Source of the DNA: a virus
Lineage: Duplodnaviria > Caudoviricetes
Strand: one strand, 5' to 3'
IMG/VR virus record: IMGVR_UViG_3300032093_000156
Coordinates: 1-57,642 of that record
DNA length: 57,642 nucleotides
Positions 5,735-41,252 of the stretch are shown here, in pieces (position 1 is the stretch's first letter; the number at the start of each line of letters is the position of its first letter). The translations under genes were made by a program, and so were the position numbers. Below the pieces are notes generated by a model. That model did no database searches. It had not been told where the DNA came from and worked only from the letters and a program-made list of their open reading frames with translations.

Positions 5735-6024
5735 TGAACGAAAGAATGCAGACCAAGTACATGACGGTCTTAGAGGACATGTATTTAAGCGATGGTTTCA
5801 AGTTGCAAGAAATGCGCTCGAAGCACAGAGTAAGCCAATACCTAATCACCATCTGCGTGAAGTTGGGTTATATTGAAAAGACCAAGGGTACTCGATACCG
5901 ATGGGTCAAGGGTTTACCGAGCAAGCGTCACTTAAGTCGCATCAAGCAGGAGTTTGAGTCGATGCAGAAACCAAAGAAGCGAGTAGTCAAACTATTATGG
6001 GGGCTTATCATTTATGAGGTATAG
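5731..6024 (+). CDS. Basic hypothetical protein, possible winged-helix DNA binder
   Basis: 97 aa, Lys/Arg-rich, CVKLGYIEKTKGTRYRW wing-like segment. Confidence 0.65.
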   Translation: MMNERMQTKYMTVLEDMYLSDGFKLQEMRSKHRVSQYLITICVKLGYIEKTKGTRYRWVKGLPSKRHLSRIKQEFESMQKPKKRVVKLLWGLIIYEV

Positions 6025-18395: not shown

Positions 18396-19497
18396 TATTG
18401 CCAGACAAATAATCTCTGAGAACAAACTTAATACGAGAGAAGAGACAATGAGAATATATGTCTCTCGCGCTGTTACTAAGCATAATAATAGAGGTGTTAA
18501 GGATGCGTGTAATGACTTAGAAGTAGCTCCTTCAAACGTCCCGTACCTTTGGCTTAAGACTAAGCAGGCCTCTTTATTTATCAAGAATCCAGCATATCGC
18601 GTTGATGAAATAGACTACGAGTCAATTATATCAAAATGTATTGAAGGTAAGTCGCCAGTGCCTAAGTCAGATTGGAAGCCAGGGCATACAGTTGATCGTT
18701 TGGTATGGACCGATGTTCACGTAGGTATGGATGCTAGCCGAAAGGGATTGGCTTTGTATGCTACTGATTGGAATGGAGATCTACTTAATAAAAGAGTCGA
18801 GGAAATGGCTGAGTTTGTTTTAGCAAATAAATCATCAGATAGTCTTGTTATAGATGATCTGGGAGACTTTATGGATGGATGGGATGGTGAGACTACGCGT
18901 AAAGGGCATAAGCTCCCACAGAACATGACAAACGAAGAGGCGTTTGAGGCAGGTCTAAAAGCTAAAGTACTGTTAATTGACTATCTAGCCCCTCAGTATA
19001 AGAACATTCTTTGTAACAACATATGTGAAGACAATCACTCAGGTGCTTTTGGATACATTGTTAATTCAGCATTTAAGCATGTCGTTGATCGTAAGTACAG
19101 CAACGTCAATGTTATCAACCACAAGAAGTTTATAAACCACTACATAATTGGAAAACATGGATTTATCATTAGCCATGGCAAAGACTCTCGCAACCTTAAG
19201 TTTGGATTCAAGGTCCAGCTTGATTCAAGAGGTGTTGAGAAAATATCTCAGTACATTAGACACTCGCATGAGCTAAGATCTTGTGACTACGTTGAGTTCA
19301 GCAAGGGTGACTCTCACCAGATGCTATTCGACTACTGTTCTTCCGATGAGTTTGACTACTTCAACTTTCCGGCATTCTCGCCAAGTTCAGAGTGGGTTCA
19401 GACTAACTTTAAGAAAGGCCGATCCGGATTTGTATTCTTCCAGATCGACCTTGAGTCTAATCGTAAGGTTGTTATGCCTTACTTCTTTAATATTTGA
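18337..19497 (+). CDS. Calcineurin-like metallophosphoesterase with N-terminal HTH
   Basis: TDVHVG, LGDFMDG, EDNH, SHG, GDSH motifs; N-terminal GMTKADIARQ HTH. Confidence 0.8.
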   Translation: MKQYMDRILELLASGMTKADIARQIISENKLNTREETMRIYVSRAVTKHNNRGVKDACNDLEVAPSNVPYLWLKTKQASLFIKNPAYRVDEIDYESIISKCIEGKSPVPKSDWKPGHTVDRLVWTDVHVGMDASRKGLALYATDWNGDLLNKRVEEMAEFVLANKSSDSLVIDDLGDFMDGWDGETTRKGHKLPQNMTNEEAFEAGLKAKVLLIDYLAPQYKNILCNNICEDNHSGAFGYIVNSAFKHVVDRKYSNVNVINHKKFINHYIIGKHGFIISHGKDSRNLKFGFKVQLDSRGVEKISQYIRHSHELRSCDYVEFSKGDSHQMLFDYCSSDEFDYFNFPAFSPSSEWVQTNFKKGRSGFVFFQIDLESNRKVVMPYFFNI

Positions 19498-28400: not shown

Positions 28401-30410
28401 ACCACTATATGCTTGTGCGGCTAGACCTACAAAAGAAGTAGCCTTGCCTCCAACACCAGAAGCCATAGCTGGGAGAGATTCTAATACACCACCAATAGCT
28501 TGAGTAAACCAACCTCTGTCTCCAGATTTCATGTACTCAAGTGTAGTACCCTCGCTACCTACTGCTTTAATAATTGATGCTTTGGCATCTTCTTTTGCTT
28601 GAAGGATAGCTTGGTTATCTAGTAAATTTTCAATCTGTTGCTTGGTTAGATTCTTGCCATTATATTTTAAGCTTTTATAGTATGCCTTTTCCTCTGGAGA
28701 TAACTCGTCATATTTATCTTTACCAAGTGCTGCTTGATATGCAAATGGCTCAGCAACTACCATGGATACACCGGACAGCACCTTGTTAAGTAAATACCCA
28801 GCAGTCCCACCTTCTTTCTCTTTTGCAGCGATATATTTACCAGCTACATAGTTTAGTTTACTCTGAGATGCAATGGTCTGATCTCTTTGAATTTTAAATT
28901 TTTGGCGTCTAGTTTCAATATCTTCAGCCTTATTGTCTATGAGTAATTTTTGCTCGTTGTATTGCTCCTGAGTAAGTAAGCCTGATTTTGCCAACTGATT
29001 AAATTTAGCAACCTCAATATCGTATGCTTTCATATCTGACTGTATATTCTCAGCTGTTTTTTGCAAATCATTGAGCTGCATATCATAATTCTTGACATTG
29101 TCTTGAATTACTTCATCAGTAAGATAAGAGTTGATTCTGTTTTTAGCTTCTTTAATCTTGTTGGGATCCTTAGTTTCCTTAGCATAATTATATTGATCAT
29201 AAAGATCATTTAGCTTTTGCTCATATGTTTTATTAGCCTCAGATTTTTTCTTTTTGTAATCTTGATATGCAGGTGTTTTATAGAACTCTTGTACATATTT
29301 AGTAGGTAAATCTACCCCTACAATGTGGTTTTGAATAAGTTCTTTTTGCTCCTCAAAAGACAATTTCTTAAACTGATTTTGAAAATCCTGATCTATTATT
29401 TTCTTACCTACATTGACTGATGCTTTTGCCGGATCTTTTGCATCCCAACTTGTTCTTTGCCCAGTTTTTGGATCTGCATATTCAAGCTTTCTTAAAGTTC
29501 CTACAGCATCATAATATGTTTTACTATAAGCTTTAGTTGCATTTTCTTCTAAGAATGCTTTTAATTTAGCAGCTTGCTCTGGATTCTTTTCATCAAATTC
29601 AAATACCTCTTCTTTACTACCATCTTGAGTCTTGACTCTAATTCTGTCAATAGCAAATGCACCTTCTTCTTCGAATGTGAATCCGTATTTGGCGTAGTTT
29701 TTAGTTAAATAATCAATAGCCTTCTCTTCAGTTTGTCCAACAAAACTAGACGTAATCTCTTTAAAATTCTTAGGTGGTAATGTAGTAGTGGGTACAATTT
29801 TAGTACCTACTGATTGACCATATCGCTTGTTTAATGCATTTATTGATCCTTCATTCTTGATGGGTACAAATTCACTACCAGGAGTTTTTCGTTCCCATTG
29901 GTTGTTATTTATACGATATAAATTGTCTTTTTTCTCTTCGTCGTAATTAGAGAAAACTTGCTCCTCTTGAGAAACAGACGCGTCTTTTTTGAATTGATAG
30001 TTTAGATTTTTTATCCTATTAGGATCTGTAATCTGAGAGTACTTTGTCTTAATAGTGGTATTTGGTGCATCTTTACCTGAAGATACAACTGCTTCTTCAT
30101 ACCATGCATTATTCTTAAACTTATATCTCTTAGCTTCTTTACCAGGATATCCTGTAAAAATCTCACCGTCTGATGACGCCGATGAACCAGTCCCCGAGGT
30201 GGAGTCCGTAGTGCCTGGGCTTTTTTTTTTAAAATAACTAGAGTAAAACGAATTAGCATCTAGGTCAGTCATTCCTTGATCTTTTAAGTAAGACCAAACT
30301 TCCTGAGCTTTCCCCTGATCTGAATATTTACTGAAAAATGTGTTAGCATCTAAATCTGTTAACCCATTCTCTTTTAAATAATTATAAAGCTGTTGCTGCT
30401 TGTCGTTCAT
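19479..30410 (-). CDS. Giant (3643 aa) polyvalent internal virion/ejection protein
   Basis: Last gene of the structural operon, after two ejection-type genes. Contains RAVHDFFGH and LLHEAVHH zincin-like motifs, a glycosylase-like block and an ART-like block. Confidence 0.8.
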   Translation of the reverse strand: MNDKQQQLYNYLKENGLTDLDANTFFSKYSDQGKAQEVWSYLKDQGMTDLDANSFYSSYFKKKSPGTTDSTSGTGSSASSDGEIFTGYPGKEAKRYKFKNNAWYEEAVVSSGKDAPNTTIKTKYSQITDPNRIKNLNYQFKKDASVSQEEQVFSNYDEEKKDNLYRINNNQWERKTPGSEFVPIKNEGSINALNKRYGQSVGTKIVPTTTLPPKNFKEITSSFVGQTEEKAIDYLTKNYAKYGFTFEEEGAFAIDRIRVKTQDGSKEEVFEFDEKNPEQAAKLKAFLEENATKAYSKTYYDAVGTLRKLEYADPKTGQRTSWDAKDPAKASVNVGKKIIDQDFQNQFKKLSFEEQKELIQNHIVGVDLPTKYVQEFYKTPAYQDYKKKKSEANKTYEQKLNDLYDQYNYAKETKDPNKIKEAKNRINSYLTDEVIQDNVKNYDMQLNDLQKTAENIQSDMKAYDIEVAKFNQLAKSGLLTQEQYNEQKLLIDNKAEDIETRRQKFKIQRDQTIASQSKLNYVAGKYIAAKEKEGGTAGYLLNKVLSGVSMVVAEPFAYQAALGKDKYDELSPEEKAYYKSLKYNGKNLTKQQIENLLDNQAILQAKEDAKASIIKAVGSEGTTLEYMKSGDRGWFTQAIGGVLESLPAMASGVGGKATSFVGLAAQAYSGIEEEMLSDPDFQYSSSLDRALIAVPYAAAMGVLENVGLNNLVKGDSFAGKVLMGVALKAAKKLGANATVDALEKIAEKEVQSMLAKGLIKITQAGLAEFETGATQSLVLDKGWKDVANWWMSKDLTEEQKKNLTKGEFFETPDGFKETAFKVFEDGLAEMVGGKTMGAVGVIGERLIRGNISLYSEDDLKFLENVATDTEFKKLMVANLKTQMIKGNITKSEANAQLEAINKIDGIISSMPEQLSDRDRMNAFNLIVERDRLQKEIDKSDPALVTAQKERVAEINNQLDKISKDAVQKQTTGEVPVQSGTAVSGEMAEGESETGLKEATKKGKEEVAQYIADMGAEARLGATINPIMDKMSNAEFINDNDIDTAIEAIFNEVEQLEKSDQYSPETKAAMSEKLLNIADKLDNYEFRTKTETVATTKAGAASPTRRTSEAVQKIRAEKYFNGVEAEVNGQQVTLSDNNGRVEAAMPNGEVIVIDTPTMEIIEDGFEFDNNGALQAVTVTDRLGNTVKLTGEQALDFAIRDRENKLGVVEQAEFETVYQEVEKQYIKENLQDTQKQTNLAQDEKGKPKAGNRLFNEPLKAVAEIANRYFQRVFGSQRPTFEGTTELDVERAKRIAAAYEAMEDNPNDPEVKRAYEAMAKETIEQYRAFLDAGYVVEINNEEPYATSEEMIEDLRNNKRIKIFSTESGFGDTPITPEQRAANPLLATTEFTDVNGQPMLVNDLFRAVHDFFGHAELGNSFGPKGEENAWNVHARMYSPLARRAMTTETRGQNSYVNFSGVNERVEALREEARKLREQGKLDEAAALVNQIYDEAKFADQKIGLLPEEFSMIDGEVQETVDAEANLITEKNAKLMSVKFKRNPIVRAALNIMKALPGVKIYLHENTDQYASTLADRTGESKQSITKENSAGSYIDGEIHIDMTKADMVTLLHEAVHHAFASLGVSENLFIDLAKGLRPLITNKTRLAELDAFIDSYDGDELKAEEFMAQLGGILADNREELTVSKLTQFKALINRLMKKIGLGVIFKASATTKEAADLINAITFGISTGSKISDQVVGKTGKAKRQAVTIMQGKESMKKFGLKEGKNVTRKIGEALEARQRAKYGTIAQKDNSPEARKKISNWMVDEVKYFTELMGDKSGKGWYGELYQKSLDAMSKIFPEMKTDQNARDLFTMLVAITSDGQKVMTNFKLASEAYDYYKKNGVMPVTLSGLRVASFEANLKRINELLVEYNGDIAAIKKDLMDVRSIQDINKERKTEGLPPLKTSWPVSFKAPFAASVFGAKLGMFFSNLSGNEAYPTLDRWWSRTFNRYRGTLIPGLKSGFTKKGEAIGLDRFKGLLGNPGMSNEEALLASKSYRDSYAAKGYKNGTEVEKAANTIYKTAFENINDAPFNGGDRKFMYDTISDAVNKLNKDGYELSIADVQAILWYFEKNLYKTLGVQAKIEGISYEDAANYTYDKWKESGQKFNYEIKAEEEGQSVEDADEDIEEEEAKPIKRKKQLIAPNGKPSKLNAQQWEQVRTPAFKKWFGDWENDPENASKVVDENGEPRVVFHGTNAEFDEFKSELLGSKNWLADSAYMGFFFAGNQATSEAYTGMNSSDMIGLNISDSPILKRANEKYGKEIQDVKDSIKEVYQKEFDDALDKRKKELIDGLTEDVIKIFFPKGITNETVNTLISFEKREEISKKADKINKDNGNAKKLEDLEKKAIKYINDEFIKDRGLKPQIMNLFLNIRNPKTVAVENRDEVSLPYEIQAAKDSGNDGVIFNNLKDGAEEDDIFVAFKPNQVKSATENVGTFSPKTANIKFQKAPKILGGKPTQVIVKDEYKALLDQIKLEARAQREQKREHKKILADISATVTSLKSKGNISVKQFDFIMKKLKGLNFDNKQKVSEFIDYVSRALANAEYIDNVQKAKRMSKAIASKLKGKPNPFAIVAKMFTSLDAEYVENVVDHIAVAQMIMDGVKSSSTRGGKLTLKQEPDLQVIAEYIDAEQQRQTQRLFKNLQARYENITGKPSTNLPAETMLTELEALKPDVDNSADILDQIDLQLAAYSQLIDEDTPQVIIDAINIDTEEFGIADSIKVLDALDTYFANGVTSGIESLMGAYEGMMNAKKFKFKSSPMSIAMSEKLGRTRLGLFAGFSRILERKFRSVDKANAYQKASGINDIIVGANKADFEATFKQSEYIRKFGKMKGFFSNENIYERGIIADLIRTNPNIDQDAEFDRLINILMDSKNMLLQSSDETKVRMGRLYDKVFKKLGLYNANVTLESVLAKAEQMNIDAVNFAVDMFAEKYEQMSDTAMGVYNIMLNQDINYTPKTYVNIKQGQSKDSDALSGSDVLGIGQYSNNYFNRNEAGVLMPITRPKDLKSNGKYVDLNFDNNMFRSYRLALTDSYTAKSIRQLNSFYNSRENEEIIGSERDFDIIKSALADYISTIKGKNLIDKNLLQGVDKFLNMISTFGAVRALAGIGQFANQFASGMSNTIVNAGEHMRPSDFSKSAFDFMNKSGQPIANVGENDILISLANLDKSIERATLGKSIAEVGLDKFTKFNAKAFQLMISNPDAVARRLAWMAYYRKYVIKNKLGPIDFNADPNADAAAYAQSMVDRSMDTTDARVRGELYRSQNTYAKIIKSMLFPFSSFGMNQRTRMWGDLTKIVSGDFNLDTARSLASIGAEIAVYNVIRFQMAKLLLYAAMNLLGYDEEEQDELIEKLKKNMLSSSWSKAVVDVMSPLALADNYVLKLSNDLMSFVGLGEPSKTEVDKYIDEENKIRELKNQDPLNSEQEKKKREKYIQENAMQFYISDEANFGTLGIQWEKMTEAYDIYKAMNTGEFTDNFDRTVYLDDEGMEKIKGVAILKTIGVVAPVREVDQIANKSFSLLKKSNKISEKVKDMSAEIKNKYGKLDPVLEMLAQKKNKMSAIEGEMKFIEKNGGLTADQKIEYAKILEYIPRPTKDMLLAIKAGKTADQILKK

Positions 30411-31861: not shown

Positions 31862-32550
31862 TATGGTTGGTAGTTTGTTCCTTGTAATATACTAAGACCA
31901 TAAGCAGCTTGCTGTTCTTTAGTAAGTGGACCACCTGGAGCAGTATATGCTGTATTAGCAGTTAATGCATTCCAGCTTTGTTGTGCTTTGTTACCTTGTT
32001 TTTTATAAAGACCAATTAAGTCATCCAAACTTGATGCCGCTGATCCTGCAAATCCAAGTGCTCCCTCAATAGCAGCATTACGATTTGCAATAGCTTCAGC
32101 TCGTCTCATGTTTTGTTCTTGAACCTCACCTATTCCAGCCATCCAATCTCTTTCAGCTTTACGAGCTCCTATTCCAAGTTCAGCCTCAGCTTGAGCCATA
32201 TCTCTACCATACTGAAGTTGATTTGCTTGAGCAGCAAGAGCCATGTCTTGCTCGTTGCCTGCTGCTGCTAACTGACCTATACCACCTAAAACACCTTCAG
32301 CACCTGTGCCTTGTAATGCACCAACCATCTGAGCCTCACGTTGAGACTGTTGCTGTTGGGCCATCTCAAGACCAAGTGTAGGTACCTGTAAGGCCTTGAA
32401 TGGATTGGTTTCTTTAATTTGTTTTAGTTGCTGTTTTGCCAATGCACTAGCTTGTTCAGCTTGTTTCATTTGGCTTTGTGATTTGATAGCCTGAGCGGCA
32501 CTAACGCCAATTCCCCCTAAGGCTACTAATGTTGATGTTACTGCTGCCAT
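31861..32550 (-). CDS. Ala/Gln/Gly-rich internal virion (pilot-like) protein
   Basis: Hydrophobic Gly/Ala N-terminus and Q/A-rich coiled coil, typical of a podovirus first ejection protein. Confidence 0.65.
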   Translation of the reverse strand: MAAVTSTLVALGGIGVSAAQAIKSQSQMKQAEQASALAKQQLKQIKETNPFKALQVPTLGLEMAQQQQSQREAQMVGALQGTGAEGVLGGIGQLAAAGNEQDMALAAQANQLQYGRDMAQAEAELGIGARKAERDWMAGIGEVQEQNMRRAEAIANRNAAIEGALGFAGSAASSLDDLIGLYKKQGNKAQQSWNALTANTAYTAPGGPLTKEQQAAYGLSILQGTNYQP

Positions 32551-32945
32551 ATCTTTATCATTTCAGTGCAGTTGTTTGATCCTTTTTCAAATCCACATGC
32601 TGCATATCGGTTAATCAAATTTTCGTTCTTCAAAGAAGTGTAGAAGTATTTAGTTCCATTTGTTTCAGCAGCTACCTCAACAAGTGATTTTATTAATAGT
32701 TCTATCGCTTCTTTGCGATCGTTTTGTCTATATTGAAAGTTTGATACGATGTACTCAATCCAAGCCGTCTTTGAGTTTGTAAAGTAAATAAATCCAGCGC
32801 AAATATCTTCACCATCTTTACTTACCATTAATCCACCCCTTCCGTCTTGCGGTAGCATATCTTTTGGTGGTGCTGACCATCTCCAGTCCTTCCACCATTG
32901 GGATAATACATCGTAGTCTCGGTCATCTAAAAACCTAACTTCCAT
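32538..32945 (-). CDS. GNAT-fold acetyltransferase-like protein
   Basis: ICAGFIY..AWIEYIVSN..YAACGF. Positional analogue of the GNAT-like gene preceding ejection genes in podoviruses. Confidence 0.6.
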   Translation of the reverse strand: MEVRFLDDRDYDVLSQWWKDWRWSAPPKDMLPQDGRGGLMVSKDGEDICAGFIYFTNSKTAWIEYIVSNFQYRQNDRKEAIELLIKSLVEVAAETNGTKYFYTSLKNENLINRYAACGFEKGSNNCTEMIKIWQQ

Positions 32946-32954
32946 GTAACAAAT

Positions 32955-33725
32955 TTAAGGAAAACTTTTGAATACTGCGGTGCTAACAGCAAATAGCTCT
33001 ATTTCCGGAGTAGCGTCAGATCCACTTCTTGATAGTGTAAGGTTAAGGAAGTATCCTCTTGTTCCGTATGATTCAGCAGATGATGATTTAAAAGATACCA
33101 AAAAATCACCAGGTTGTAATGGTGTAGCAAATGCAGCATCTAATTTAATCTCATTATTGGACTGATCTACGTAGTCTATTGTTCCAACATAATTAACGCC
33201 TGAAATCATAGTACCAGCAAATGATGCTTTATAAATCTCATCCCCTTTGCTAATATTTGTGAACTTGCTTTGAGTAGTTATAATATCAGGTGCTGTTGTA
33301 GACAATACATTTCCAACACCTTGAGCAGATATTAGGTCAAAATTGATTTGATTTACTGGCCTTCTCATATATGAATACCATTCTCCTTCTTTATTTACAA
33401 ATTGAGACATACTCATTTGGGCATCATCAAGATCTGTATAACCAACAAAATTTAATGGATGTGTACAGTCAAGCGCTAACGTCTTGAACATTTTTATCTC
33501 TGTTGGCGATTGGTTTATTACAGTTGATATACTAAATCCATATAGAGAATTAATAGGTTCATTGTAAAACTGAGTCCTATTTATATTAGTATCATGTTTA
33601 TACAAATTACCATTCTTAAATGAATAGAATGAACTATTCAATCCCATCATCCACTCAGGGCGATAAGTCCATCTAGAAGTCCATCCCTCAGCTTTATCTG
33701 AAAAAGTAAGCGTATCTATAACCAT
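32955..33725 (-). CDS. Tail nozzle/stabilisation protein, C-terminal module
   Basis: TLTFSDKAEGWTSRWTYRPEWM..FYSFKNGNLYKH..KMFKTL..KEGEWY..RGYF..ELFAV. Confidence 0.65.
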   Translation of the reverse strand: MVIDTLTFSDKAEGWTSRWTYRPEWMMGLNSSFYSFKNGNLYKHDTNINRTQFYNEPINSLYGFSISTVINQSPTEIKMFKTLALDCTHPLNFVGYTDLDDAQMSMSQFVNKEGEWYSYMRRPVNQINFDLISAQGVGNVLSTTAPDIITTQSKFTNISKGDEIYKASFAGTMISGVNYVGTIDYVDQSNNEIKLDAAFATPLQPGDFLVSFKSSSAESYGTRGYFLNLTLSRSGSDATPEIELFAVSTAVFKSFP

Positions 33726-33743: not shown

Positions 33744-34661
33744 TTAGACTAAGCAGCTTTTCATGCTTTTGATCATTTGATAATAGTAATATGAGCACCT
33801 ATTTGTATCTACCGTCAGATTTGTACCAAAGGGTAAAATATGCATATATGACGCTTTGTGAAACATGCCTTGATTATTATTCATTACACCGGCATTATGG
33901 AAAAAATAAAGCTCATCCCATAAACTAGATGGACACGTAGCCCAAGCAAAATCAAAGTCTTTAGGTACCTCAACATGATGTCCAAAAAACCAAGCATTCC
34001 ATAATTCGGCCCACATGCTTGCTGTCCAAGCCTGTATGCCGTTTGGATCTCCTTCTTTTTTAATGTGCTGCATTTCAGTTAATAGATTGTATAGCGATTT
34101 ACTATCTTCTTCAACTTTCTTCCAGTAGTGAGATGTTAAGTTCTTCATAAGTTTTTGAGCTCCTCCACTTCTATTCTTATTAAACTCAATTAACTTTTTT
34201 GATATACCCACTTGATTACACATTGCGTCTAAGATCTCTTCTCCCTTGCTCATGATGTAGTCATAACCTATGTATGAGATAGTGTCTGAGAAGTACCATA
34301 TGTCATCCTGAAGATATGGAGTAAAGTCCATATACTTGGTGAAAACAAAGTCAGCATCATGAAAAAAAATTGCATCGTTTATTAGATCAGGATGCTTCTT
34401 AAAGTGCTTTTCCAAAAGATGTGCTTGTATAGCTGGTGGGTAATTACAGTCACCCATTGTATCCTTATAAAAAAAGAATCGAGCAATATCACTATAAGTC
34501 TGATATAACTTATTCCAAGATTCAGGTATCTCATCTTGATAACCAGCAACTATGTCAATGTTTTTGTAACCTAATGAAGCGAAGTTATGTATACATACCT
34601 CAATCTGCCATGCATAGTAGTCAAGCGCTGGTTGCGCTGACAACATCCTAAGTGTTTTCAT
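33744..34661 (-). CDS. GT-A glycosyltransferase resembling plant protein O-glycosyltransferases (GT95 HPAT / GT96 SERGT1)
   Basis: YYAWQ, NYPPAI, FFHDADFVF (DxD), GGAQ, WTASMW, FFHNAG. Confidence 0.65.
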   Translation of the reverse strand: MKTLRMLSAQPALDYYAWQIEVCIHNFASLGYKNIDIVAGYQDEIPESWNKLYQTYSDIARFFFYKDTMGDCNYPPAIQAHLLEKHFKKHPDLINDAIFFHDADFVFTKYMDFTPYLQDDIWYFSDTISYIGYDYIMSKGEEILDAMCNQVGISKKLIEFNKNRSGGAQKLMKNLTSHYWKKVEEDSKSLYNLLTEMQHIKKEGDPNGIQAWTASMWAELWNAWFFGHHVEVPKDFDFAWATCPSSLWDELYFFHNAGVMNNNQGMFHKASYMHILPFGTNLTVDTNRCSYYYYQMIKSMKSCLV

Positions 34662-37315
34662 TAACAGGTTTTACTTGCGCCGGTCCAGTTTGATCCGTTC
34701 CACTCATACGCAACATTTGTAATTAAATTTAAATACCAACCAGCGGGCGCAGGATCTGTGCCAGCTAAGTTTGTAAAGATATAATTTCCTGGAACACCAA
34801 TAGCTCCATTGACGTAATAATTATCAATATCAAGAACTGAGCAAACAGATGATTGTGAAGAAGAGTATGACAGCGTAATCGGAGTCAATGGCGCAGCTGT
34901 CGTAGTCGTTGTCGTCGTTGTCGTAGTTGTCGTCGTTGTCGTAGTTGTCGTCGTTGTCGTAGTTGTCGTTGCTGCACACTCTGAGCAGCTACCATACGTA
35001 TAAAATATAGTTCCATTGACAACACCTGGGCCTACAGACGCTGTTATTGTGCAGCAATCTCCATTACTATCTTTTACATAATTAGGAAGCGTCAACGCGC
35101 TAAAACCTGTGTATTGCAATAATACAGCTGCACCGCCAACACATTTTGTGCCTGAGTAGTATCTAACAGGAATAGTTGTTGTAGTTGTAGTTGTGGTTAC
35201 CCCAGAGCATGCAGATATATTAAGTATTTGACCTGTATTTGCAATAAGACATGCGTAAGTAATTCCTGATTTTCTAACTAGATACCACAGGAAACCTCCA
35301 TTAAATAATGTTGTAGCGCCTGCATTAGTGTAAACAAAACTGTTTACTGCAAATGTACCTGTGTGATAGTAGGTTATATATGTAGGCGTTTCTAGGCATG
35401 CCGATCTAGCTGTTGTAAATCCACTTGTATCAATATCAAAACCAGTTACAGGAGTTGCTGTTGTGGTTGTCGTAGTACTTGTAGTTGTTGTAGTTCCTGT
35501 GCATGCTGTACAATCTGCATATATAACGACAGGCGTTAGCATATTGTAATATGGTGATGATGCTGTAGCTACTGAAGATATCCTCCAGCAGTTTCCATCA
35601 GTTGTTTTAACTATATTTCCGGTCACAATAACAGCCGCGGTAGTATCTCTTAATACGACAGATACTGATGGATCTGAACATGAATCTGCATTATAATAAT
35701 TACCAGCAGGAAGTGTCGTTGTAGTTGTAGTTGTAGTTGTCGTTGTGGTTCCAGCACATGTGCTTTCACCTATAACTGTACCATCCTCATCTATTTGTAT
35801 TGTATAGTCTGAGTCATTTATATAATACCACTTACCGCCACCCATGAATGGTTTTAGTGCTTCAGGATCGTAGAAAATTGTATCTGTAGTATTTGGGATA
35901 TATCCATTACCATTAAAATACATTAATGTGAATGTAGGTATAACCAAACAAGCGTCACTTCCAGATTCTTTAAATTGCTCCACATCAATTAAGAATGGTT
36001 TAAGGTCTCCAGGATTAGTAACGTTAACAGGTATTACAGCAGCAGATGATATTCCAAAGCAGTTTGTTGCTCTTAGTGTAATTGAGTAGTTCCCAGCCGG
36101 ACAGTTATTAAAGTATATAATACCGTCTGAAAAAACAGCCTCATTTGGTAATGTACTTGCTAGAATACTCCAAGATGTTGGGTTGTTTACAACTTCTATT
36201 ATTACATTTTCTACTGTATTTGTATCAACATTTATAGGGTCTGCAATAATAAAAGGAACGGCAAATTCAGAACATCTGCAACTTTGTTTTGAAGTAACAT
36301 CACCTGTAGATCCTACGGTTATGTAACTTAAGTTTGATATAGGAGGAGTAACACATAGAATTGTGTTTATAAGGTGAAGATAATCATCTCCAACATATAC
36401 ACTTGATCCGTCTGAAGAAGTAAATAGTTGGTCGCCAACACTTGGTAATACATCTGTTCCATTATGGTATAGAGAAAAATCAGGACACTGACTACAAACA
36501 TCTGATGGTATTCCAGCTGCTCTATCAAAGTAAAATTGTGTTAAGTATGGACTAATTTTATTTACAATCCATGTTGATCCACTGAATGGCGATGATACAA
36601 TTAAATTAGCTTCTCCGGTTGGCAAATTTTTATAAAACTCAATAACACCTGTTCCATTATCAATAAGCCCTGTATATGGAGCTATTAATCCAATTTCATC
36701 TTCAGGAACACCTGCTGCTATTAATGCGCTATAATTAGATGATGAATTAATCCCAACATACTTTGTATCAGCTACAATCTCACCATTCCATTCAACTTGG
36801 TATCTTGTAGGTTGATCAGGGTCAATGGTATTAAAACTAATACCAGCTCTCCCGATATTAGCTCCATAATTCATTTCAATTGATCGACTTTCAGTTACAC
36901 CTTTATAAGAGGCAACTGTATTCATTTTATCCTCATAATCCCATAATAAGTACACATACTCATAGTTGTTTGGATTAGAGAATACAAACTGACCTGTGAA
37001 TACACCGCCTGATAAAACAACAGGTATTTCAGTAGCAAGGCTAAGTATTGTTGACTTGTCATCGGCAGTATAGGCAACATTAGATACTAAATAGTAAAGC
37101 TTATTATTTAGTGTCGGGGCAAGTTGTCTGTAATCAGCTAATGCATCACCAGCAACAACAGTTACGGTAGATCCATTATAAGGAACATATCCAACACCAC
37201 CAATACCTGTAGATGAATCAAACAAAGCAATTGCACTTCCACTTAATACCACATTATCAATGGTATATGTTGAGCTACCTGTGTAGCTAAAAGATTGTTT
37301 AGTTTTTGAACTCAT
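34661..37315 (-). CDS. Mucin-like virion/tail protein with poly-Thr linkers and Cys-rich modules
   Basis: 884 aa. Four Thr runs (12, about 12, 8, 24) separate Cys-bounded modules. Repeated F.GG..WY..I...G module; Ig-like segment (YSITLRATN). Confidence 0.75.
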   Translation of the reverse strand: MSSKTKQSFSYTGSSTYTIDNVVLSGSAIALFDSSTGIGGVGYVPYNGSTVTVVAGDALADYRQLAPTLNNKLYYLVSNVAYTADDKSTILSLATEIPVVLSGGVFTGQFVFSNPNNYEYVYLLWDYEDKMNTVASYKGVTESRSIEMNYGANIGRAGISFNTIDPDQPTRYQVEWNGEIVADTKYVGINSSSNYSALIAAGVPEDEIGLIAPYTGLIDNGTGVIEFYKNLPTGEANLIVSSPFSGSTWIVNKISPYLTQFYFDRAAGIPSDVCSQCPDFSLYHNGTDVLPSVGDQLFTSSDGSSVYVGDDYLHLINTILCVTPPISNLSYITVGSTGDVTSKQSCRCSEFAVPFIIADPINVDTNTVENVIIEVVNNPTSWSILASTLPNEAVFSDGIIYFNNCPAGNYSITLRATNCFGISSAAVIPVNVTNPGDLKPFLIDVEQFKESGSDACLVIPTFTLMYFNGNGYIPNTTDTIFYDPEALKPFMGGGKWYYINDSDYTIQIDEDGTVIGESTCAGTTTTTTTTTTTTLPAGNYYNADSCSDPSVSVVLRDTTAAVIVTGNIVKTTDGNCWRISSVATASSPYYNMLTPVVIYADCTACTGTTTTTSTTTTTTATPVTGFDIDTSGFTTARSACLETPTYITYYHTGTFAVNSFVYTNAGATTLFNGGFLWYLVRKSGITYACLIANTGQILNISACSGVTTTTTTTTIPVRYYSGTKCVGGAAVLLQYTGFSALTLPNYVKDSNGDCCTITASVGPGVVNGTIFYTYGSCSECAATTTTTTTTTTTTTTTTTTTTTTTTAAPLTPITLSYSSSQSSVCSVLDIDNYYVNGAIGVPGNYIFTNLAGTDPAPAGWYLNLITNVAYEWNGSNWTGASKTC
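34898..34969. repeat. Thr-codon minisatellite (24 Thr; 18-bp unit x3)
   Basis: TGTCGTCGTTGTCGTAGT in three perfect copies at 34910-34963. Confidence 0.9.
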
Positions 37316-40300
37316 CTTTACCTAACGTTATAATATTGAAATCTGTTCTAGGTCCACGCCCTTGTATTAGAGTGTAATCTATTGATGTATTACAATAAGT
37401 GACTCTAAATATTACACTCCTTTGCGTACCCGTAGTATTGTTTTGAATTCTAGCATATATGTCTTGAGAACCTACACCTGATTGACAATACGGAGGTAAT
37501 TCAACCCAATTAGTTCCAAATCCATTATTAATTACAGCAATAGACCAACTTGTAGTTCCAGATAAAGCAAATAAATATTCAAGTTCCCCAGCTGTATTAT
37601 ATGGAAAACTACCTGCCGTTGGATTAATTGTTATATCACAAGGCGTATTTCTTCTAGATGTGGAGGCAAATACATAGTTTTGATTATATGGATCATAAGC
37701 TCCAAGTTTTGCCATATTAGGCGTGCTAATCATTAGATCTCTAAAGTAATCAGACATACCCATTCTAGATATCTCCATTACTTGATCACCATACATTTCA
37801 AGTACTGCCCCTCTTCTTGCATCAGAGAAATACATTTTATTCCCCCAAGTAGCAAAGCTTTCTGGATTTGATGATATACCAAATTCATAAGGTAATGCAA
37901 TCTGTGTTCCAAGTACTTCAGGCACTGATGCAACTGATCCACCGCCAACAGCATCAACTAATAAATTCTTACCATATAAAACTGATGTAATCTTATCTTG
38001 ATGCAATACAATTAAGTCAGTAGTTCTAGCATATAGTTTCTGAACTGAACCAAAGTTCTTATCTAGGTTTTTAAAATTTGCTGTAGATAAATTAAACTCA
38101 TTGAGTCTATTTATTGATGAATCCCATCTATATAGACCACTATAAGTAAGTGATGCTTCTTTTACTTGTTGTTCATAATCCTCAATAACACCACTAGCTC
38201 TTAAACTATACTTTAACCATGGTTGATTAAATCCATCAAGAATCCTGTTAGACTCTACACCATTACCATAGCAATAAGCATTATAGTCTGAGTTTTTATT
38301 ATTGGTGTTATTTAAGACAATGACTGCACCATTTAGTGAACTAGTTTGGTTTTTGTCAAAGCTATTGTCTGAAACTCCTCCAGGTATATTTGCAGTTGCA
38401 GCTGCATAATCAATTTCTATAGAATATCTATTAGGAACACTGACAACATTATAAAAACCAGCAGGTATGTTTGTAGCTGTCACATAAACTGATTGACCGT
38501 CTTGAAAATAATGTGGCAGTCTTTGTGGATCCTGCACTAAATAAACATTGCTTCCATTTGCAACACATTGATCATAACTCCATAACGCTATGTGGTTGCC
38601 ATTAACAATCGGATATGTTCTACTCATTTCATAGTAGATGTCCACATCGTCATTTGCAGGCACAGTTTCAGCAGTAAGTTTAGATCCTGGAGGCGTTTGA
38701 GTTATTTTCAATTGAACAGATATTTCATTTCTGCTAGATCCTTGATTTAATCCAAATCCTCTTACCAACATCCATTTTTCAGAACTAGCAGGATCGACTT
38801 CAATAACATTACTAGTAAATCCAAATGTGCTATATGATTGAGTTACATCAATAGCATTTCTAAATGTAACGGCAGCAGCATGTATATCTGTTCCATTTTG
38901 ATTGTATTGTATAAATGACTGATATGCTCCAGATTGCCAAAACCATTCCTCAATATCTGCATAATCTTTATCTGATACCCAAGACATAGAAGTAGCATTT
39001 TGGCCAGGTGCATTTATAGCTGCACCGTCATTTAATATATCGATTGAAATATTTGCACCTGCATATATTGCTCCTGGTCCTTTTATAGCAGCATGGCCAC
39101 CATATACTTGAGGATCATAAGATGCTAAATAAGGAGTATTTGGTTTAGGTAAGCCATATCCTCCATTAGGTTGTAATGGTGTTCCTTGGAATTGAGTTCC
39201 ACTTCTAACATTTATAACCCATTTATCTCCATTTGTATATCCACTTGAAGAGTCAAAATTAAAAACCAATGTGGTATCGCCGGATGTTAATGTTATAGGT
39301 GATGTGCTAATTGGTAAGTTAGCTATCCACCAAGATTGAGCTACATCTGTGGTCCATCTAAATGTAGTTGAGTTAAGTATTTCTATAGAAATCCTAACAT
39401 CGTCTAATGAACTAGAAGACGATTGGCTTACAGATATTCCTGGGCCCGTATTCGGTGTTCCATTAATAGAATAATATATAGGAGCGGAAATATAGAAAAT
39501 ATTGTTTTGTGCAACAGCAGGTGTTTGAGTTCCTGATGAATTGTTATCAGGACCTCTTCCACTTCCTAAATATGAATAAGTGTTTTGAGTAGGTATGTCT
39601 AAAAAAGTATCTATATAATCAGCTTTAATCTTAAAATATAACCCTTCTAAGGCTCCAGGTATATTATTAAAACCGGATTGCTTATACTCAAGCTCAAGTA
39701 CTTTGAATTTTTTATTTGAGTTTGTTGGGGATCCGTTTGCTGACTTAAATATTATATATCCATTAACCTTTATCTTATCTCTATCAGCTTCGTTAATTAA
39801 AAAATATCTATATAAATTATCCTTTAAAAAAGTAACAGGAAACAAATTATAATACTCTCCTTTAGACTGCTTAACAAATAATCTGTACCCAGTAGCCCAT
39901 ACAGGAGCCTCATTCTTTATATTAACAACCAAAGAATTTGCAGTACTTGAGTTATCTGGAGATATATATACTGAGTTAGACTGATTATTGCCTGGAGTTG
40001 AACTAGTAGATGCCCCATCAACAGATGTTAATATAGTAGTCATTCGACCATAATCATCTAAATAGGCGATACCAATCTCATAATCTCGATCGCTTCTCCA
40101 TGTTTGTTTTGGTAGTGATGTGATGGGCTCTGAAATATAATCTACAGTATAATTAACATCTATAAAATCATTTGTACTGTATCCTATTAAATCTCTGAAT
40201 TGAGTGTAATTACCCATAACTAATCTACTCCCAATGATATCTTGAGCTAAAGCTTTAAGAGGCACGTTGTCAAATAATCTAGTTACTTGATCTGAAGGAA

Positions 40301-41252
40301 GAGCTGCGTATGTTTTATTATTCATAAAGAAGAAACTATACGTAGAATTATCTTGTATACCTATTTCTTCCTTATTTAACGTCTCAACAATTTTTACATT
40401 AAGAGTTCTAGACTCCCAAACTAATAATTGAATTTCCTTAACAAACTCATTTCCAGTTTCAAATGTAACTTCAACCTGATTAAATTCATTAAGCATGCCT
40501 TTATTTTCACCTGTCTCTATATCAATATTCAAGAATTTTGGATTGAATGCTGTAGATGAAAATGGAGACATTGATGAGTACTCATTATCTAAGTACTTAT
40601 ATCGATAGCTGAAATAAACAAACTTGTCCTCAATATTATTTGGGTCTAATGTTGTAGACTGAAGTGTGCTTAATGATATAAAAGGCGAGTTAAGTGGTGG
40701 AGCGACAATTAGATTAATATCGTCGTCAATTCTAGTATCATTAACGCTATATGTCTTGCATCTATTAATATTAATCTTTCTAGGTGGGTTTAAGTTGTCA
40801 TTCCAAATAAGAAAACCACCACCCATACCGTCAGTAATGTAGTTAACACCAGTAATTAGATAATTAGCGTCAAAATTCAATCTAACATTATTTGAGTTTG
40901 GTATTTGACATCCAAGTACTAACAATGATGCATTAGTAATCTCATTGTATTCAAATATACCCTCAAAGTTATCAGCCTTTACAAACCAATATAATAAGTT
41001 TGATGGCTCATATGCTAATGCTCCTATAGTAACCGCATTTACTGCCGCAGGGATCTGGTAACTAGCAAGTATGTTATTTATGTTTGTTGTTAATGTGTTA
41101 CCAAGGGAATTCTGAACAGCACCAATATTTGATCCTTCTGATGTGTCAATAGTTATATTTACCGCATCACGGTATTCTCCATCAGGAACTAACCTCTCAT
41201 CGAGGTCTTTGTTCATTCTCCCGGCAAGAAATGTTCTTTGTAGGTCAGCCAT
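37299..41252 (-). CDS. Tail nozzle/stabilisation protein, N-terminal main part
   Basis: FLAGRMNKDLDERLVPDGEYRDAVN start, FSYRYKYLDNEYS, SRLVMGNY, YGNGVES, FGISSNPESFA..YFSDARRGAV beta-propeller-type motifs. Confidence 0.75.
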   Translation of the reverse strand: MADLQRTFLAGRMNKDLDERLVPDGEYRDAVNITIDTSEGSNIGAVQNSLGNTLTTNINNILASYQIPAAVNAVTIGALAYEPSNLLYWFVKADNFEGIFEYNEITNASLLVLGCQIPNSNNVRLNFDANYLITGVNYITDGMGGGFLIWNDNLNPPRKININRCKTYSVNDTRIDDDINLIVAPPLNSPFISLSTLQSTTLDPNNIEDKFVYFSYRYKYLDNEYSSMSPFSSTAFNPKFLNIDIETGENKGMLNEFNQVEVTFETGNEFVKEIQLLVWESRTLNVKIVETLNKEEIGIQDNSTYSFFFMNNKTYAALPSDQVTRLFDNVPLKALAQDIIGSRLVMGNYTQFRDLIGYSTNDFIDVNYTVDYISEPITSLPKQTWRSDRDYEIGIAYLDDYGRMTTILTSVDGASTSSTPGNNQSNSVYISPDNSSTANSLVVNIKNEAPVWATGYRLFVKQSKGEYYNLFPVTFLKDNLYRYFLINEADRDKIKVNGYIIFKSANGSPTNSNKKFKVLELEYKQSGFNNIPGALEGLYFKIKADYIDTFLDIPTQNTYSYLGSGRGPDNNSSGTQTPAVAQNNIFYISAPIYYSINGTPNTGPGISVSQSSSSSLDDVRISIEILNSTTFRWTTDVAQSWWIANLPISTSPITLTSGDTTLVFNFDSSSGYTNGDKWVINVRSGTQFQGTPLQPNGGYGLPKPNTPYLASYDPQVYGGHAAIKGPGAIYAGANISIDILNDGAAINAPGQNATSMSWVSDKDYADIEEWFWQSGAYQSFIQYNQNGTDIHAAAVTFRNAIDVTQSYSTFGFTSNVIEVDPASSEKWMLVRGFGLNQGSSRNEISVQLKITQTPPGSKLTAETVPANDDVDIYYEMSRTYPIVNGNHIALWSYDQCVANGSNVYLVQDPQRLPHYFQDGQSVYVTATNIPAGFYNVVSVPNRYSIEIDYAAATANIPGGVSDNSFDKNQTSSLNGAVIVLNNTNNKNSDYNAYCYGNGVESNRILDGFNQPWLKYSLRASGVIEDYEQQVKEASLTYSGLYRWDSSINRLNEFNLSTANFKNLDKNFGSVQKLYARTTDLIVLHQDKITSVLYGKNLLVDAVGGGSVASVPEVLGTQIALPYEFGISSNPESFATWGNKMYFSDARRGAVLEMYGDQVMEISRMGMSDYFRDLMISTPNMAKLGAYDPYNQNYVFASTSRRNTPCDITINPTAGSFPYNTAGELEYLFALSGTTSWSIAVINNGFGTNWVELPPYCQSGVGSQDIYARIQNNTTGTQRSVIFRVTYCNTSIDYTLIQGRGPRTDFNIITLGKDEFKN

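What the first reader, a model, noticed from the sequence alone, without database searches (positions are those of the whole stretch)
33744..37315. Candidate phage mucin-type O-glycosylation system: poly-Thr tail protein plus cognate GT95/GT96-like transferase
Seen: an 884-aa structural-operon protein with four Thr homopolymer linkers (35714-35749, about 35453-35495, 35174-35197, 34898-34969) between Cys-bounded modules. It is coupled by a TAATG overlap to a 305-aa DxD glycosyltransferase. By my recall, its motif order (YYAWQ / NYPPAI / HDADFVF / WTASMW / H) parallels plant peptidyl-serine galactosyltransferase and hydroxyproline arabinosyltransferase (Y..WQ / Y...N.P / D.D / W..EMY), which act on protein hydroxyls. 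Established: virion glycosylation is known in some mycobacteriophages. Inference: the phage glycosylates the Thr tracts to make stiff, protease-resistant bottle-brush tail appendages, perhaps as glycan bait for Bacteroidota Sus-type receptors or for adhesion to gel particles.
Basis: partly seen in the sequence, partly recalled or inferred. Interest (0 to 1): 0.9.

Follow-up and report, generated by a model that had tools for sequence, protein, structure and literature searches.

The report
Phage poly-threonine tag and glycosyltransferase
A phage tail protein whose modules are joined by runs of threonine sits next to an uncharacterised sugar-transferring enzyme, and the same pairing recurs in very different phages, so it is probably a widespread, untested way for phages to coat their particles with sugars.

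Summary
An 884-aa ORF (34661-37315, minus) has four poly-Thr tracts and is joined by a TAATG overlap to a 305-aa ORF (33744-34661). The 305-aa protein folds confidently (pLDDT 94.6) as a GT-A glycosyltransferase, closest to retaining GT8/GT77/GT24 enzymes (LgtC Z 14.8). It has a conserved DxD and His, no Pfam family, and PHROG 4417 'unknown function'.

The main result is comparative. In 76 of 80 close viral loci, 62 of 80 divergent loci and 9 of 9 isolated phages examined, virion proteins beside the gene carry Thr tracts, often as C-terminal tails of the major capsid and tail-tube proteins. In matched orthologue sets, tail and gene are present or absent together: 12/12 against 0/15 for tail-tube proteins, needing 4 changes on the tree. 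Five GT-less Flavobacteriia phage relatives lack the enzyme, the tracts and the 884-aa protein.

The converse fails: only 7 of 117 arbitrary poly-Thr viral loci carry this enzyme.

The best reading is a portable cassette in which the enzyme O-glycosylates the Thr tracts in the cytoplasm (confidence 0.7; no biochemistry). GT95/GT96 membership is not shown, only faint HPAT signals. I rate it a new variant of virion glycosylation, which is known from mycobacteriophages.

The parts
34661..37315 (-). 884-aa distal tail protein carrying four poly-Thr tracts. It has an N-terminal body (residues 1 to about 440) followed by five small beta modules.
   Evidence: ORF; the only Thr-tract ORF in the record; fused to the 1317-aa protein in relatives L074, L076, L081 and L082.
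35714..35749 (-). Poly-Thr tract 1 (T12, residues 523-534); proposed O-glycosylation acceptor.
   Evidence: conserved in position in A3; pLDDT below 50.
35459..35494 (-). Poly-Thr tract 2 (T5-S-T6, residues 608-619).
35174..35197 (-). Poly-Thr tract 3 (T8, residues 707-714).
34898..34969 (-). Poly-Thr tract 4 (T24, residues 783-806), written with ACG/ACA/ACT codons in a short periodic unit.
34664..35995 (-). Modular C-terminal half: five Cys-containing beta modules (about 68-85 aa each) strung on the four Thr tracts.
   Evidence: module D0 resembles M2, E 2.6e-8; PHROG 21885 with 3 matched stretches; AlphaFold model me55f6e9e8328. No solved-structure match; only uncharacterised phage proteins in BFVD.
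33744..34661 (-). 305-aa GT-A fold glycosyltransferase (PHROG 4417), soluble; its start codon overlaps the stop codon of the 884-aa ORF (TAATG).
   Evidence: no transmembrane segment.
34350..34358 (-). DxD motif (D102-A-D104) directly after a beta strand.
   Evidence: D102 and D104 are invariant in A1. In the 61-sequence A2, D104 is invariant and D102 is at least 90% conserved.
33897..33899 (-). His255, a candidate third metal ligand as in retaining GT-A enzymes (the role is inferred).
   Evidence: Invariant in A1 and A2; lies in strand E253-255.
37299..41252 (-). 1317-aa large tail/virion structural protein. It overlaps the start of the 884-aa ORF by 17 nt and is fused to it in some relatives.
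   Evidence: PHROG 14478, E 7.7e-189.
32955..33725 (-). 256-aa protein with the crAss muzzle C-terminal domain. In GT-less relatives this is the C-terminal domain of the large tail protein, so the 884-aa region plus the GT lies inside an ancestral single gene.
   Evidence: Pfam PF25729, 29 bits against a cut-off of 27; (matches residues 1083-1327 of the phi40:1 protein, 1262-1494 in elemoC and 1158-1384 in Gundel_1).

Best explanation
The 305-aa protein is a soluble, metal-dependent GT-A glycosyltransferase of an uncharacterised phage family. During virion assembly in the host cytoplasm it transfers sugar from a host nucleotide-sugar to the hydroxyl groups of the poly-Thr tracts in the protein encoded just upstream. 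In this phage that protein is the distal part of the large tail protein. Its four tracts would then become densely O-glycosylated, extended, mucin-like spacers between five small beta modules. Tract and enzyme form a portable two-part cassette, an acceptor tag plus its writer. In other phages the same cassette is attached to major capsid, tail-tube, decoration and tail proteins. Shown here: the fold, the conserved DxD and His, the adjacency, and the co-variation of tag and enzyme. Inferred: catalysis, Thr as the acceptor, which sugar is used, and the physical consequences.
For: Enzyme. The AlphaFold model has pLDDT 94.6. Foldseek gives at least 356 PDB matches at E<=0.001, all listed ones glycosyltransferases or related sugar-transfer enzymes, led by WbbM, UGGT, COLGALT1, XXYLT1 and LgtC. 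VIA gives LgtC Z 14.8 (233 aligned, rmsd 3.5), Skp1 galactosyltransferase Z 14.0, glycogenin Z 13.8, UGGT Z 13.7 and GlyE Z 13.0. D102, D104 and H255 are conserved across 61 sequences with 31% mean column identity. There is no transmembrane segment. Of 10 longer family members scanned, 2 carry GT6 domains, 2 carry GT2 plus GT32-type domains, 1 radical-SAM/SPASM and 1 a sub-threshold methyltransferase.

Coupling. Of 80 close viral loci, 76 have a strict poly-Thr ORF within 22 nt upstream, 3 have one within 1.6 kb, and 1 (L041) has Thr/Ser-mixed tracts. Only 1 other Thr-tract ORF occurs anywhere in these 80 loci. Of 80 divergent loci (40-47% identity), 62 are adjacent, 4 within 3 kb, and 2 have an adjacent (Thr-Ser)n tract. 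All 9 isolated phages examined have Thr tracts on virion proteins. Several have them on proteins not adjacent to the gene, such as both capsid and tail-tube C-termini in phages 1706, iLp84 and phiFL1A.

Matched controls. Of 27 phiFL1A-type tail-tube orthologues, 12 of 12 with a Thr tail have the enzyme and 0 of 15 without a tail do. The tree needs 4 changes, at least 2 forced by well-supported branches. For capsid orthologues, 70 of 70 tail-bearing loci with any usable downstream sequence have the enzyme (2 of them have a frame-broken capsid ORF and 1 has only 155 bp downstream). It is present in 0 of the 5 tail-less loci with at least 1.2 kb downstream. All 5 GT-less Flavobacteriia phage relatives lack the tracts and the 884-aa protein. 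No other glycosyltransferase was found among 39 other ORFs of the record.
Against: There is no biochemical or mass-spectrometric evidence for any member of the family. Nine of 79 evaluable divergent loci show no Thr or Thr/Ser tract within the fetched 4-6 kb. For five of these I searched the whole contig: only the one complete genome has Thr-tract proteins, about 24 kb away, and the other four contigs are fragments with none. The converse association is weak: only 7 of 117 arbitrary viral loci encoding at least 12 Thr codons carry this enzyme in the stored stretch. So poly-Thr tracts exist widely without it. Most loci within each set are close relatives, so the raw counts overstate the number of independent events. 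Tag and gene are physically linked, which by itself favours co-inheritance. The residue-level equivalence of DxD and His to the metal ligands of GT8 enzymes was not checked by superposition.
Confidence: 0.7

Rival explanations
1. The enzyme glycosylates something else, such as a host envelope polymer, phage DNA or another residue type. The Thr tracts would be ordinary flexible linkers or tails, and the two travel together only because they are neighbours in a mobile cassette.
For: Phage glycosyltransferases that modify DNA or host serotype are well known (passage in PMC12619734). Poly-Thr tracts are common without this enzyme: 110 of 117 loci. Nine divergent loci show the enzyme without a nearby tract.
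Against: Linkage cannot explain Thr tails on proteins 1.5-2 kb from the gene with other genes between (phage 1706 capsid, phiFL1A capsid), or about 24 kb away. It also cannot explain the complete absence of tracts in GT-less orthologues. The gene sits inside virion-structure modules, not with DNA-metabolism or lysogeny genes. In A3 many Thr columns are invariant, with Ser the only substitute seen inside the tracts.
Confidence: 0.12
2. The Thr tracts are glycosylated, or otherwise modified, by host enzymes or not at all. The GT-fold protein would be a non-catalytic assembly factor or chaperone that binds Thr tails.
For: In siphophages the gene lies between the tail-tube gene and the tail-assembly chaperone genes. 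Structural similarity alone does not show activity.
Against: The DxD, the His and a set of aromatic and polar residues are conserved across the family at 31% mean column identity, which is typical of an active site. Fusions are to other glycan-building domains. Separate chaperone genes follow it in phiFL1A.
Confidence: 0.06
3. The enzyme is a true member of plant-type GT95 (HPAT) or GT96 (SGT1) and transfers arabinofuranose or galactose.
For: The Pfam HPAT model matches 1 of 61 diverse relatives at E 1.3e-4. In the Atlas, 20 of the 30 nearest named clusters carry HPAT, shown at a 10% share for the one listed.
Against: HPAT does not match the window protein, nor any of 9 isolate-phage homologues. 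The best solved neighbours are GT8/GT77/GT24. Arabinofuranose donors are not expected in these hosts (my own knowledge, not tested).
Confidence: 0.15

Closest known systems
Mycobacteriophage virion glycosylation (Freeman et al. 2023, Cell Host Microbe). The paper itself was not held. It is known to me here only through passages in citing papers: PMC12619734 and PMC11256854.
   Same: Phage-encoded glycosyltransferases modify virion proteins, and the glycans sit at the C-termini of both capsid and tail-tube subunits (passage). Those are the same positions where the Firmicutes phages here carry Thr tails.
   Different: No Mycobacterium phage appears among the genera tallied for the 75 records that match this enzyme. 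There the transferase genes lie near the 3' end of the genome (passage); here the gene abuts its presumed substrate. Here a homopolymeric Thr tag is evident. In the window phage the tracts are internal spacers of a tail protein, not C-terminal tails. Nothing here has been tested experimentally.
Serine-rich-repeat adhesin glycosylation in Gram-positive bacteria (for example GlyE of S. pneumoniae, PDB 5gvv). The system description is from my own knowledge.
   Same: A dedicated cytoplasmic GT-A/GT8-type transferase decorates long hydroxy-amino-acid repeats of a surface protein encoded nearby. GlyE is a fold neighbour at Z 13.0.
   Different: That system is bacterial, Ser-rich rather than Thr homopolymer, initiated by a GT-B GtfA/B pair, and exported by an accessory Sec system. 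None of these is present here.
Retaining GT8-type GT-A enzymes (LgtC, glycogenin) and relatives GT77 (Skp1 AgtA) and GT24 (UGGT).
   Same: These are the best structural neighbours (Z 13.7-14.8). The DxD and a downstream conserved His fit the metal-site pattern of these enzymes (the pattern is recalled). Several of them act on protein-linked acceptors.
   Different: There is no sequence match to Pfam Glyco_transf_8 or to any PDB chain. Identity in the structural alignments is 8-10%.
Plant hydroxyproline O-arabinosyltransferase (GT95, Pfam HPAT) and peptidyl-serine galactosyltransferase (GT96).
   Same: They transfer sugar directly to side-chain hydroxyls in low-complexity extensin or arabinogalactan-protein tracts (my own knowledge). 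There are faint HPAT signals among relatives.
   Different: The window protein does not reach any HPAT score, the acceptor residue differs, and they are eukaryotic Golgi membrane proteins whereas this is a soluble phage protein.
Chlorovirus PBCV-1 capsid glycosylation (A64R, PDB 2p6w).
   Same: A virus-encoded GT-A enzyme glycosylates its own capsid protein independently of host secretory machinery. It is a fold neighbour at Z 11.3.
   Different: It is a eukaryotic virus with atypical N-linked glycans (my own knowledge) and no Thr tag.
Eukaryotic mucin-type O-glycosylation.
   Same: A dense Thr-rich tract would be expected to become an extended glycosylated spacer.
   Different: That pathway is initiated by GT27 GalNAc-transferases with a lectin domain in the Golgi. 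The resemblance here is by analogy only.

Membership tests
GT-A fold glycosyltransferase superfamily | Single Rossmann-like alpha/beta/alpha nucleotide-sugar-binding domain | tested here: met
   The model has pLDDT 94.6. Foldseek gives probability 1.00 to many GT-A enzymes. VIA Z is 13-14.8 over residues 1-305.
GT-A fold glycosyltransferase superfamily | DxD metal/nucleotide-sugar motif after the central strand | tested here: met
   HDADF at residues 101-105 follows strand 96-100. D104 is invariant and D102 at least 90% conserved in 61 diverse sequences.
GT-A fold glycosyltransferase superfamily | Glycosyl transfer activity | not testable with these tools
   This needs an enzyme assay.
CAZy GT8 (Pfam PF01501) | Match to the family profile | tested here: not met
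   No Pfam hit at E<=0.1. PF01501 finds nothing in the whole record at E<=10, while it rings in 6 of 14 control genomes.
CAZy GT8 (Pfam PF01501) | DxD plus a C-terminal His as metal ligands (recalled from LgtC and glycogenin) | tested here: inconclusive
   H255 is invariant, but no residue-level superposition was available.
CAZy GT95 / Pfam HPAT (PF23452) | Match to the family profile | tested here: not met
   The window protein has no hit (in one search the control genomes did not ring either). None of 9 isolate homologues match. One of 61 diverse relatives matches at E 1.3e-4. The Atlas shows a minority HPAT label on neighbouring clusters.
CAZy GT95 / Pfam HPAT (PF23452) | Fold-level similarity to a solved GT95 structure | not testable with these tools
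   No GT95 entry appeared in the fold-search lists. I do not know of a solved structure.
CAZy GT96 (peptidyl-serine alpha-galactosyltransferase) | Sequence or profile match | not testable with these tools
No GT96 profile or sequence was at hand.
Phage virion O-glycosylation system (mycobacteriophage type) | Phage-encoded transferase together with acceptor regions on capsid or tail proteins | tested here: met
   At sequence level only.
Phage virion O-glycosylation system (mycobacteriophage type) | Glycans demonstrated on virion proteins | not testable with these tools
   This needs glycoprotein staining or mass spectrometry.
Mucin-type O-glycosylation (GT27-initiated) | GT27 catalytic domain with ricin-type lectin domain | tested here: inconclusive
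   The protein is 305 aa with a single domain and no lectin domain. GT27 enzymes are not among the listed fold neighbours, which does not exclude distant similarity.
crAss-like / Flavobacteriia podophage tail (muzzle-type) protein | Muzzle C-terminal domain (Pfam PF25729) and synteny with the large tail protein | tested here: met
   The 256-aa ORF scores 29 bits against a cut-off of 27. In three GT-less relatives it is the C-terminal domain of the large protein. Gene order is shared.

The most novel reading that the evidence does not exclude
Poly-Thr plus this transferase is a general, modular 'tag-and-writer' system. Phages of at least Bacillota and Bacteroidota hosts have grafted it repeatedly onto unrelated virion proteins (capsid, tail tube, decoration, distal tail) to give the particle a mucin-like glycan coat or glycosylated spacers. 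A short Thr run would then be sufficient to direct glycosylation of any protein co-expressed with the enzyme. That would also make it a simple tool for cytoplasmic O-glycosylation and glycan display on phage.
Probability: 0.5. Interest if true: 0.85.

Novelty: new variant of a known kind. Interest (0 to 1): 0.78.

Why it matters
Virion glycosylation by phage-encoded enzymes has been shown, as far as my searches found, only for mycobacteriophages (searches, all of the held library only).

This family is large. It has 944 representatives at 50% identity with E<=0.001 and at least 595 viral contigs. It is present in 75 of 50,697 deposited phage records, including phages of Enterococcus, Lactobacillus, Lactococcus and Staphylococcus hosts. 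It has no Pfam family and a PHROG labelled 'unknown function'.

If it is active, three things follow:
- Virion glycosylation extends to dairy, gut and aquatic phages.
- There is a recognisable acceptor tag that allows glycosylated virion proteins to be predicted from sequence.
- It bears on antibody recognition in phage therapy and on protease resistance and adsorption of dairy phages, and it offers a compact two-part system for engineering.

It is directly testable in cultivable, low-risk phage-host pairs.

Tried and rejected
- **Sequence search of PDB chains** with the family profile found only chance rows (Geminin, E 0.28).
- **Pfam:** nothing for the window enzyme or for 9 isolate homologues. 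The HPAT and GT8 models found nothing in the record.
- **Fold of the five modules:** Foldseek against PDB gave no match at E<=0.001. The VIA wide search gave a best Z of 5.2 on small beta-barrel proteins, below the level I would trust. BFVD gave only uncharacterised phage proteins.
- **Control with the N-terminal body of the 884-aa protein** returned only 12 close relatives that had already been found through the GT search, so it had no control value.
- **Apparent exceptions:** I first took phiCTP1 and L041 for exceptions. Both have shorter or Ser-mixed tracts.
- **GNAT-like ORF (32538-32945):** I considered it as part of the cassette and rejected it, because it is conserved in four of the five GT-less relatives.
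- **The Freeman 2023 paper** is not held. The Jabs preprint text held no relevant passage. No supplementary files were consulted.
- **Complex prediction** was not used, because an enzyme with a disordered substrate is a poor case for it.
- **Treekit independent-pairs test** was not run; I report tree changes only.


Full report
**1. What is there**

The window is a whole virus record of 57,642 bases, estimated 95% complete. Its minus-strand structural module reads as follows:
- large terminase
- portal
- major capsid-type virion protein
- several virion proteins
- a 1317-aa large tail protein (37299-41252)
- the 884-aa ORF (34661-37315)
- the 305-aa ORF (33744-34661)
- a 256-aa ORF with the crAss muzzle C-terminal domain (Pfam PF25729, 29 bits against a cut-off of 27)
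- a GNAT-like ORF
- two more ORFs
- a 3643-aa giant ORF

The large tail protein is shared with podophages of Flavobacteriia: Cellulophaga phi38:1 and phi40:1, Flavobacterium 'elemo' phages, Tenacibaculum Gundel_1 and Maribacter Panino. In all, 87 phage records match it. So the host is probably a member of that class (inference).

**2.

- In the whole record, only this ORF has a window of at least 8 Thr in 10 residues, out of all six-frame ORFs of at least 50 aa.
- In an alignment of 28 homologues of the C-terminal half (42-85% identical), the tracts keep their positions. Many Thr columns are invariant, Ser is the only substitute seen inside the tracts in the printed alignment, and the bounding Cys are invariant.
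- AlphaFold gives five confident beta modules separated by four tracts with pLDDT below 50.
- I found no solved fold for the modules. Only uncharacterised phage proteins share them.

**3. The enzyme**

The 305-aa protein has no Pfam family and belongs to PHROG 4417, 'unknown function' (E 3e-65).
- With a 37-sequence alignment it folds at pLDDT 94.6.
- Both fold searches place it among GT-A glycosyltransferases. The top matches are retaining enzymes: LgtC Z 14.8, the Skp1 alpha-galactosyltransferase Z 14.0, glycogenin Z 13.8, UGGT Z 13.7, LARGE1, WbbM and GlyE Z 13.0. Sequence identity in these alignments is 8-10%.
- D102 and D104 (the DxD) and H255 are conserved in 61 sequences with 31% mean column identity.
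- It has no hydrophobic segment, so it should act in the cytoplasm.
- Among 10 longer family members, I found fusions to GT6 (2), to GT2 plus a GT32-type domain (2), to radical-SAM/SPASM (1) and to a sub-threshold methyltransferase (1). Four had no recognisable partner domain. These are the kinds of partners expected in a glycan-building pathway.
- The record has no other recognisable glycosyltransferase or sugar-nucleotide gene among 39 other ORFs of at least 100 aa. Donors would therefore come from the host.

**4. The association, which is the main result**

(a) *Close relatives.* Of 80 viral loci with the enzyme at 46-90% identity:
- 76 have a strict poly-Thr ORF ending within 22 nt of the enzyme's start.
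- 3 have one within 1.6 kb.
- 1 (L041) has Thr/Ser-mixed tracts in the adjacent ORF.
- Only one other Thr-tract ORF occurs anywhere in these loci.

(b) *Divergent relatives* (40-47% identity; 80 kept of at least 595 found):
- 62 have a strict tract ORF within 100 nt upstream, and 4 within 3 kb.
- 2 have an adjacent (Thr-Ser)n tract of about 80 residues.
- 1 has short T4-5 tracts and 1 is marginal.
- 9 have nothing in the fetched stretch, and 1 has no upstream sequence.
- The tract-bearing ORFs range from 154 to 1963 aa with 1 to 16 tracts. This suggests different carrier proteins, although I did not cluster them.

(c) *Isolated phages.* All 9 examined have Thr tracts on virion proteins next to or near the gene.

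| Phage | Where the Thr tracts are |
|---|---|
| Chryseobacterium MA9V-3 | two upstream ORFs |
| Enterococcus phiFL1A | capsid-position protein and major tail protein C-termini |
| Enterococcus 4995_1 | capsid C-terminus |
| Enterococcus Planchet | a short ORF after the capsid gene |
| Lactobacillus iLp84 | capsid, a small ORF, and the major tail protein |
| Lactococcus 1706 | capsid/protease fusion and major structural protein, both ending in T9-10 followed by HHD |
| Staphylococcus SA2 | tail-tube C-terminus, an overlapping Thr-rich ORF, and the protease ORF |
| Arcanobacterium TPWB06 | same pattern as SA2 |
| Clostridium phiCTP1 | shorter T5-6 tails on three proteins |

In several of these the tagged protein is 1.5-2 kb from the gene with other genes between.

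(d) *Matched controls.*

| Orthologue set | Thr tract or tail present: enzyme found | No tract or tail: enzyme found |
|---|---|---|
| phiFL1A-type tail-tube proteins (27 loci) | 12 of 12, immediately downstream | 0 of 15 (each with at least 2.7 kb downstream visible) |
| 4995_1-type capsid proteins (80 loci) | 70 of 70 with any usable downstream sequence | 0 of 5 with at least 1.2 kb downstream |
| GT-less Flavobacteriia phage relatives (5 fetched) | not applicable | 0 of 5; all also lack a Thr tract and any homologue of the 884-aa protein |

- For the tail-tube set, the two states are interleaved on the tree. Four changes are needed, and at least two are forced by well-supported branches.
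- For the capsid set, 2 of the 70 have a frame-broken capsid ORF and 1 has only 155 bp downstream (a partial GT match). Three further tail-bearing loci have 113 bp or less downstream and cannot be judged. Two further tail-less loci have short flanks and show no enzyme.
- In three of the five GT-less relatives, the 256-aa 'muzzle C-terminal' protein is simply the C-terminal domain of the large tail protein.
- In other relatives that do have the enzyme, the 1317-aa and 884-aa proteins are one polypeptide of about 2100-2190 aa.
- So in this lineage the Thr-tract region plus the enzyme gene lies inside what is elsewhere a single tail gene.

(e) *The converse is weak.* Of 117 arbitrary viral loci that encode at least 12 consecutive ACN codons, 106 read a run of at least 10 Thr in an ORF. 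Only 7 carry the enzyme in the stored stretch, and in all 7 it lies directly or closely downstream of the tract ORF. Many of these loci are truncated and some are giant-virus contigs, so 7 is a lower bound. Even so, poly-Thr clearly occurs without this enzyme.

(f) *The exceptions.* I searched the whole contig of five of the nine. Only one is a complete genome, and it has proteins with many T6-14 tracts about 24 kb from the gene. The other four are fragments (4-56% complete) with no T8 tract.

**5. Reading**

The simplest account of a conserved GT-A enzyme that appears and disappears in step with Thr homopolymers on otherwise orthologous virion proteins is that the tracts are its acceptors.
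- *Shown:* fold, conserved motif, adjacency and co-variation.
- *Inferred:* catalysis, Thr as the acceptor, the sugar, and any physical effect such as extension, protease resistance, shielding or adhesion.

I put 0.7 on O-glycosylation of the tracts by this enzyme, and about 0.9 on some functional coupling between the two.

Counts within each locus set are inflated by close relatives. The independent evidence is:
- the number of unrelated carrier proteins and phage groups;
- the 4 (at least 2) changes on the tail-tube tree;
- the three separate matched controls.

**6. Comparison with what is known**

The nearest precedent is mycobacteriophage virion glycosylation.
- Another states that the transferase genes lie near the 3' end of the genome (passage in PMC11256854).
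- I could not read the primary paper.

The Firmicutes phages here put Thr tails at the same two positions, but with a different enzyme family: no Mycobacterium phage appears among the genera tallied for the 75 matching records. They also have an obvious homopolymer tag and a tight gene pairing.

The logic also resembles serine-rich-repeat adhesin glycosylation, where GlyE is a fold neighbour, and chlorovirus capsid glycosylation (A64R, Z 11.3).

- HPAT does not match the window protein.
- It matches 1 of 61 relatives at E 1.3e-4.
- It appears as a minority label on neighbouring Atlas clusters.
- GT96 could not be tested.

I therefore describe the enzyme as an unclassified GT-A family with retaining-type structural neighbours and a faint HPAT link.

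**7. Novelty**

Ten full-text searches of the held library found no description of this family, of Thr tails as a phage glycosylation tag, or of virion glycosylation in these phage groups. Subscription papers and supplements were not searchable, so prior description cannot be excluded.

I class it as a new variant of a known kind.

Noticed in passing
window 37299-37315 (junction of the 1317-aa and 884-aa ORFs): The two ORFs overlap by 17 nt in different frames, while in relatives L074, L076, L081 and L082 they form one protein of about 2100-2190 aa. This could be a true split, a programmed frameshift or an assembly error; I could not tell which.
   Followed up: partly
L086 19093-19927 (Staphylococcus phage SA2) and L088 18398-19184 (Arcanobacterium phage TPWB06): The major tail protein ends in T8-9, and an overlapping ORF in another frame continues with about 40-50 residues of Thr-rich tracts. 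This looks like a possible frameshift-extended long form of the tail-tube protein. In Enterococcus phage Planchet a similar 48-aa Thr-rich ORF overlaps the end of the capsid gene (L087 9892-10035).
   Followed up: no
window 32538-32945 (minus): A 135-aa GNAT-like ORF has weak Pfam acetyltransferase hits below cut-off and matches PHROG 17252. It is conserved in four of the five GT-less relatives. One deposited record annotates its homologue as 'N-terminal acetyltransferase complex subunit'. It lies in the tail module, and its function is unknown.
   Followed up: partly
window 19479-30410 (minus): A 3643-aa giant ORF follows the tail genes. Relatives have similarly placed giant ORFs, annotated as structural protein.
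   Followed up: no
window 34898-34969: The T24 tract is written as a repeating ACGACAACT/ACGACAACG-like unit. Tract length varies among relatives: the longest tract window is 17-32 residues. Some Enterococcus prophage capsid tails are expanded by an extra T-rich unit (L267 and L271). The tracts may change length by slippage.
   Followed up: partly
L332 and L378, ORF 4440-5954: The ORF directly upstream of the enzyme has an alternating (Thr-Ser)n tract of about 80 residues instead of poly-Thr. This suggests some family members accept Ser or mixed tracts.
   Followed up: no
proteins P0133 and P0136 (family members): The enzyme domain is fused to a radical-SAM/SPASM domain in P0133. In P0136 it is fused to a methyltransferase-like domain (24.3 bits, below the cut-off of 26.3). 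These hint at further modification chemistry linked to the family.
   Followed up: no
L249, L252, L289, L294: In four Enterococcus prophage-type contigs the enzyme ORF is split into two pieces, and in L289 and L294 the capsid ORF is broken as well. These may be pseudogenes or sequencing errors.
   Followed up: no
L328 13665-14216 (Manatee Spring podophage MW202828.1): A GT-less relative has a gene annotated 'putative glycosidase' at the position where the window has the poly-Thr protein and the enzyme.
   Followed up: no
window, other ORFs: The record also encodes a phage lysozyme, an M15 peptidase, an HNH/NUMOD4 homing-endonuclease-like ORF and an SNF2/ResIII helicase (Pfam family list). That call does not say which ORF carries which family.
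   Followed up: no
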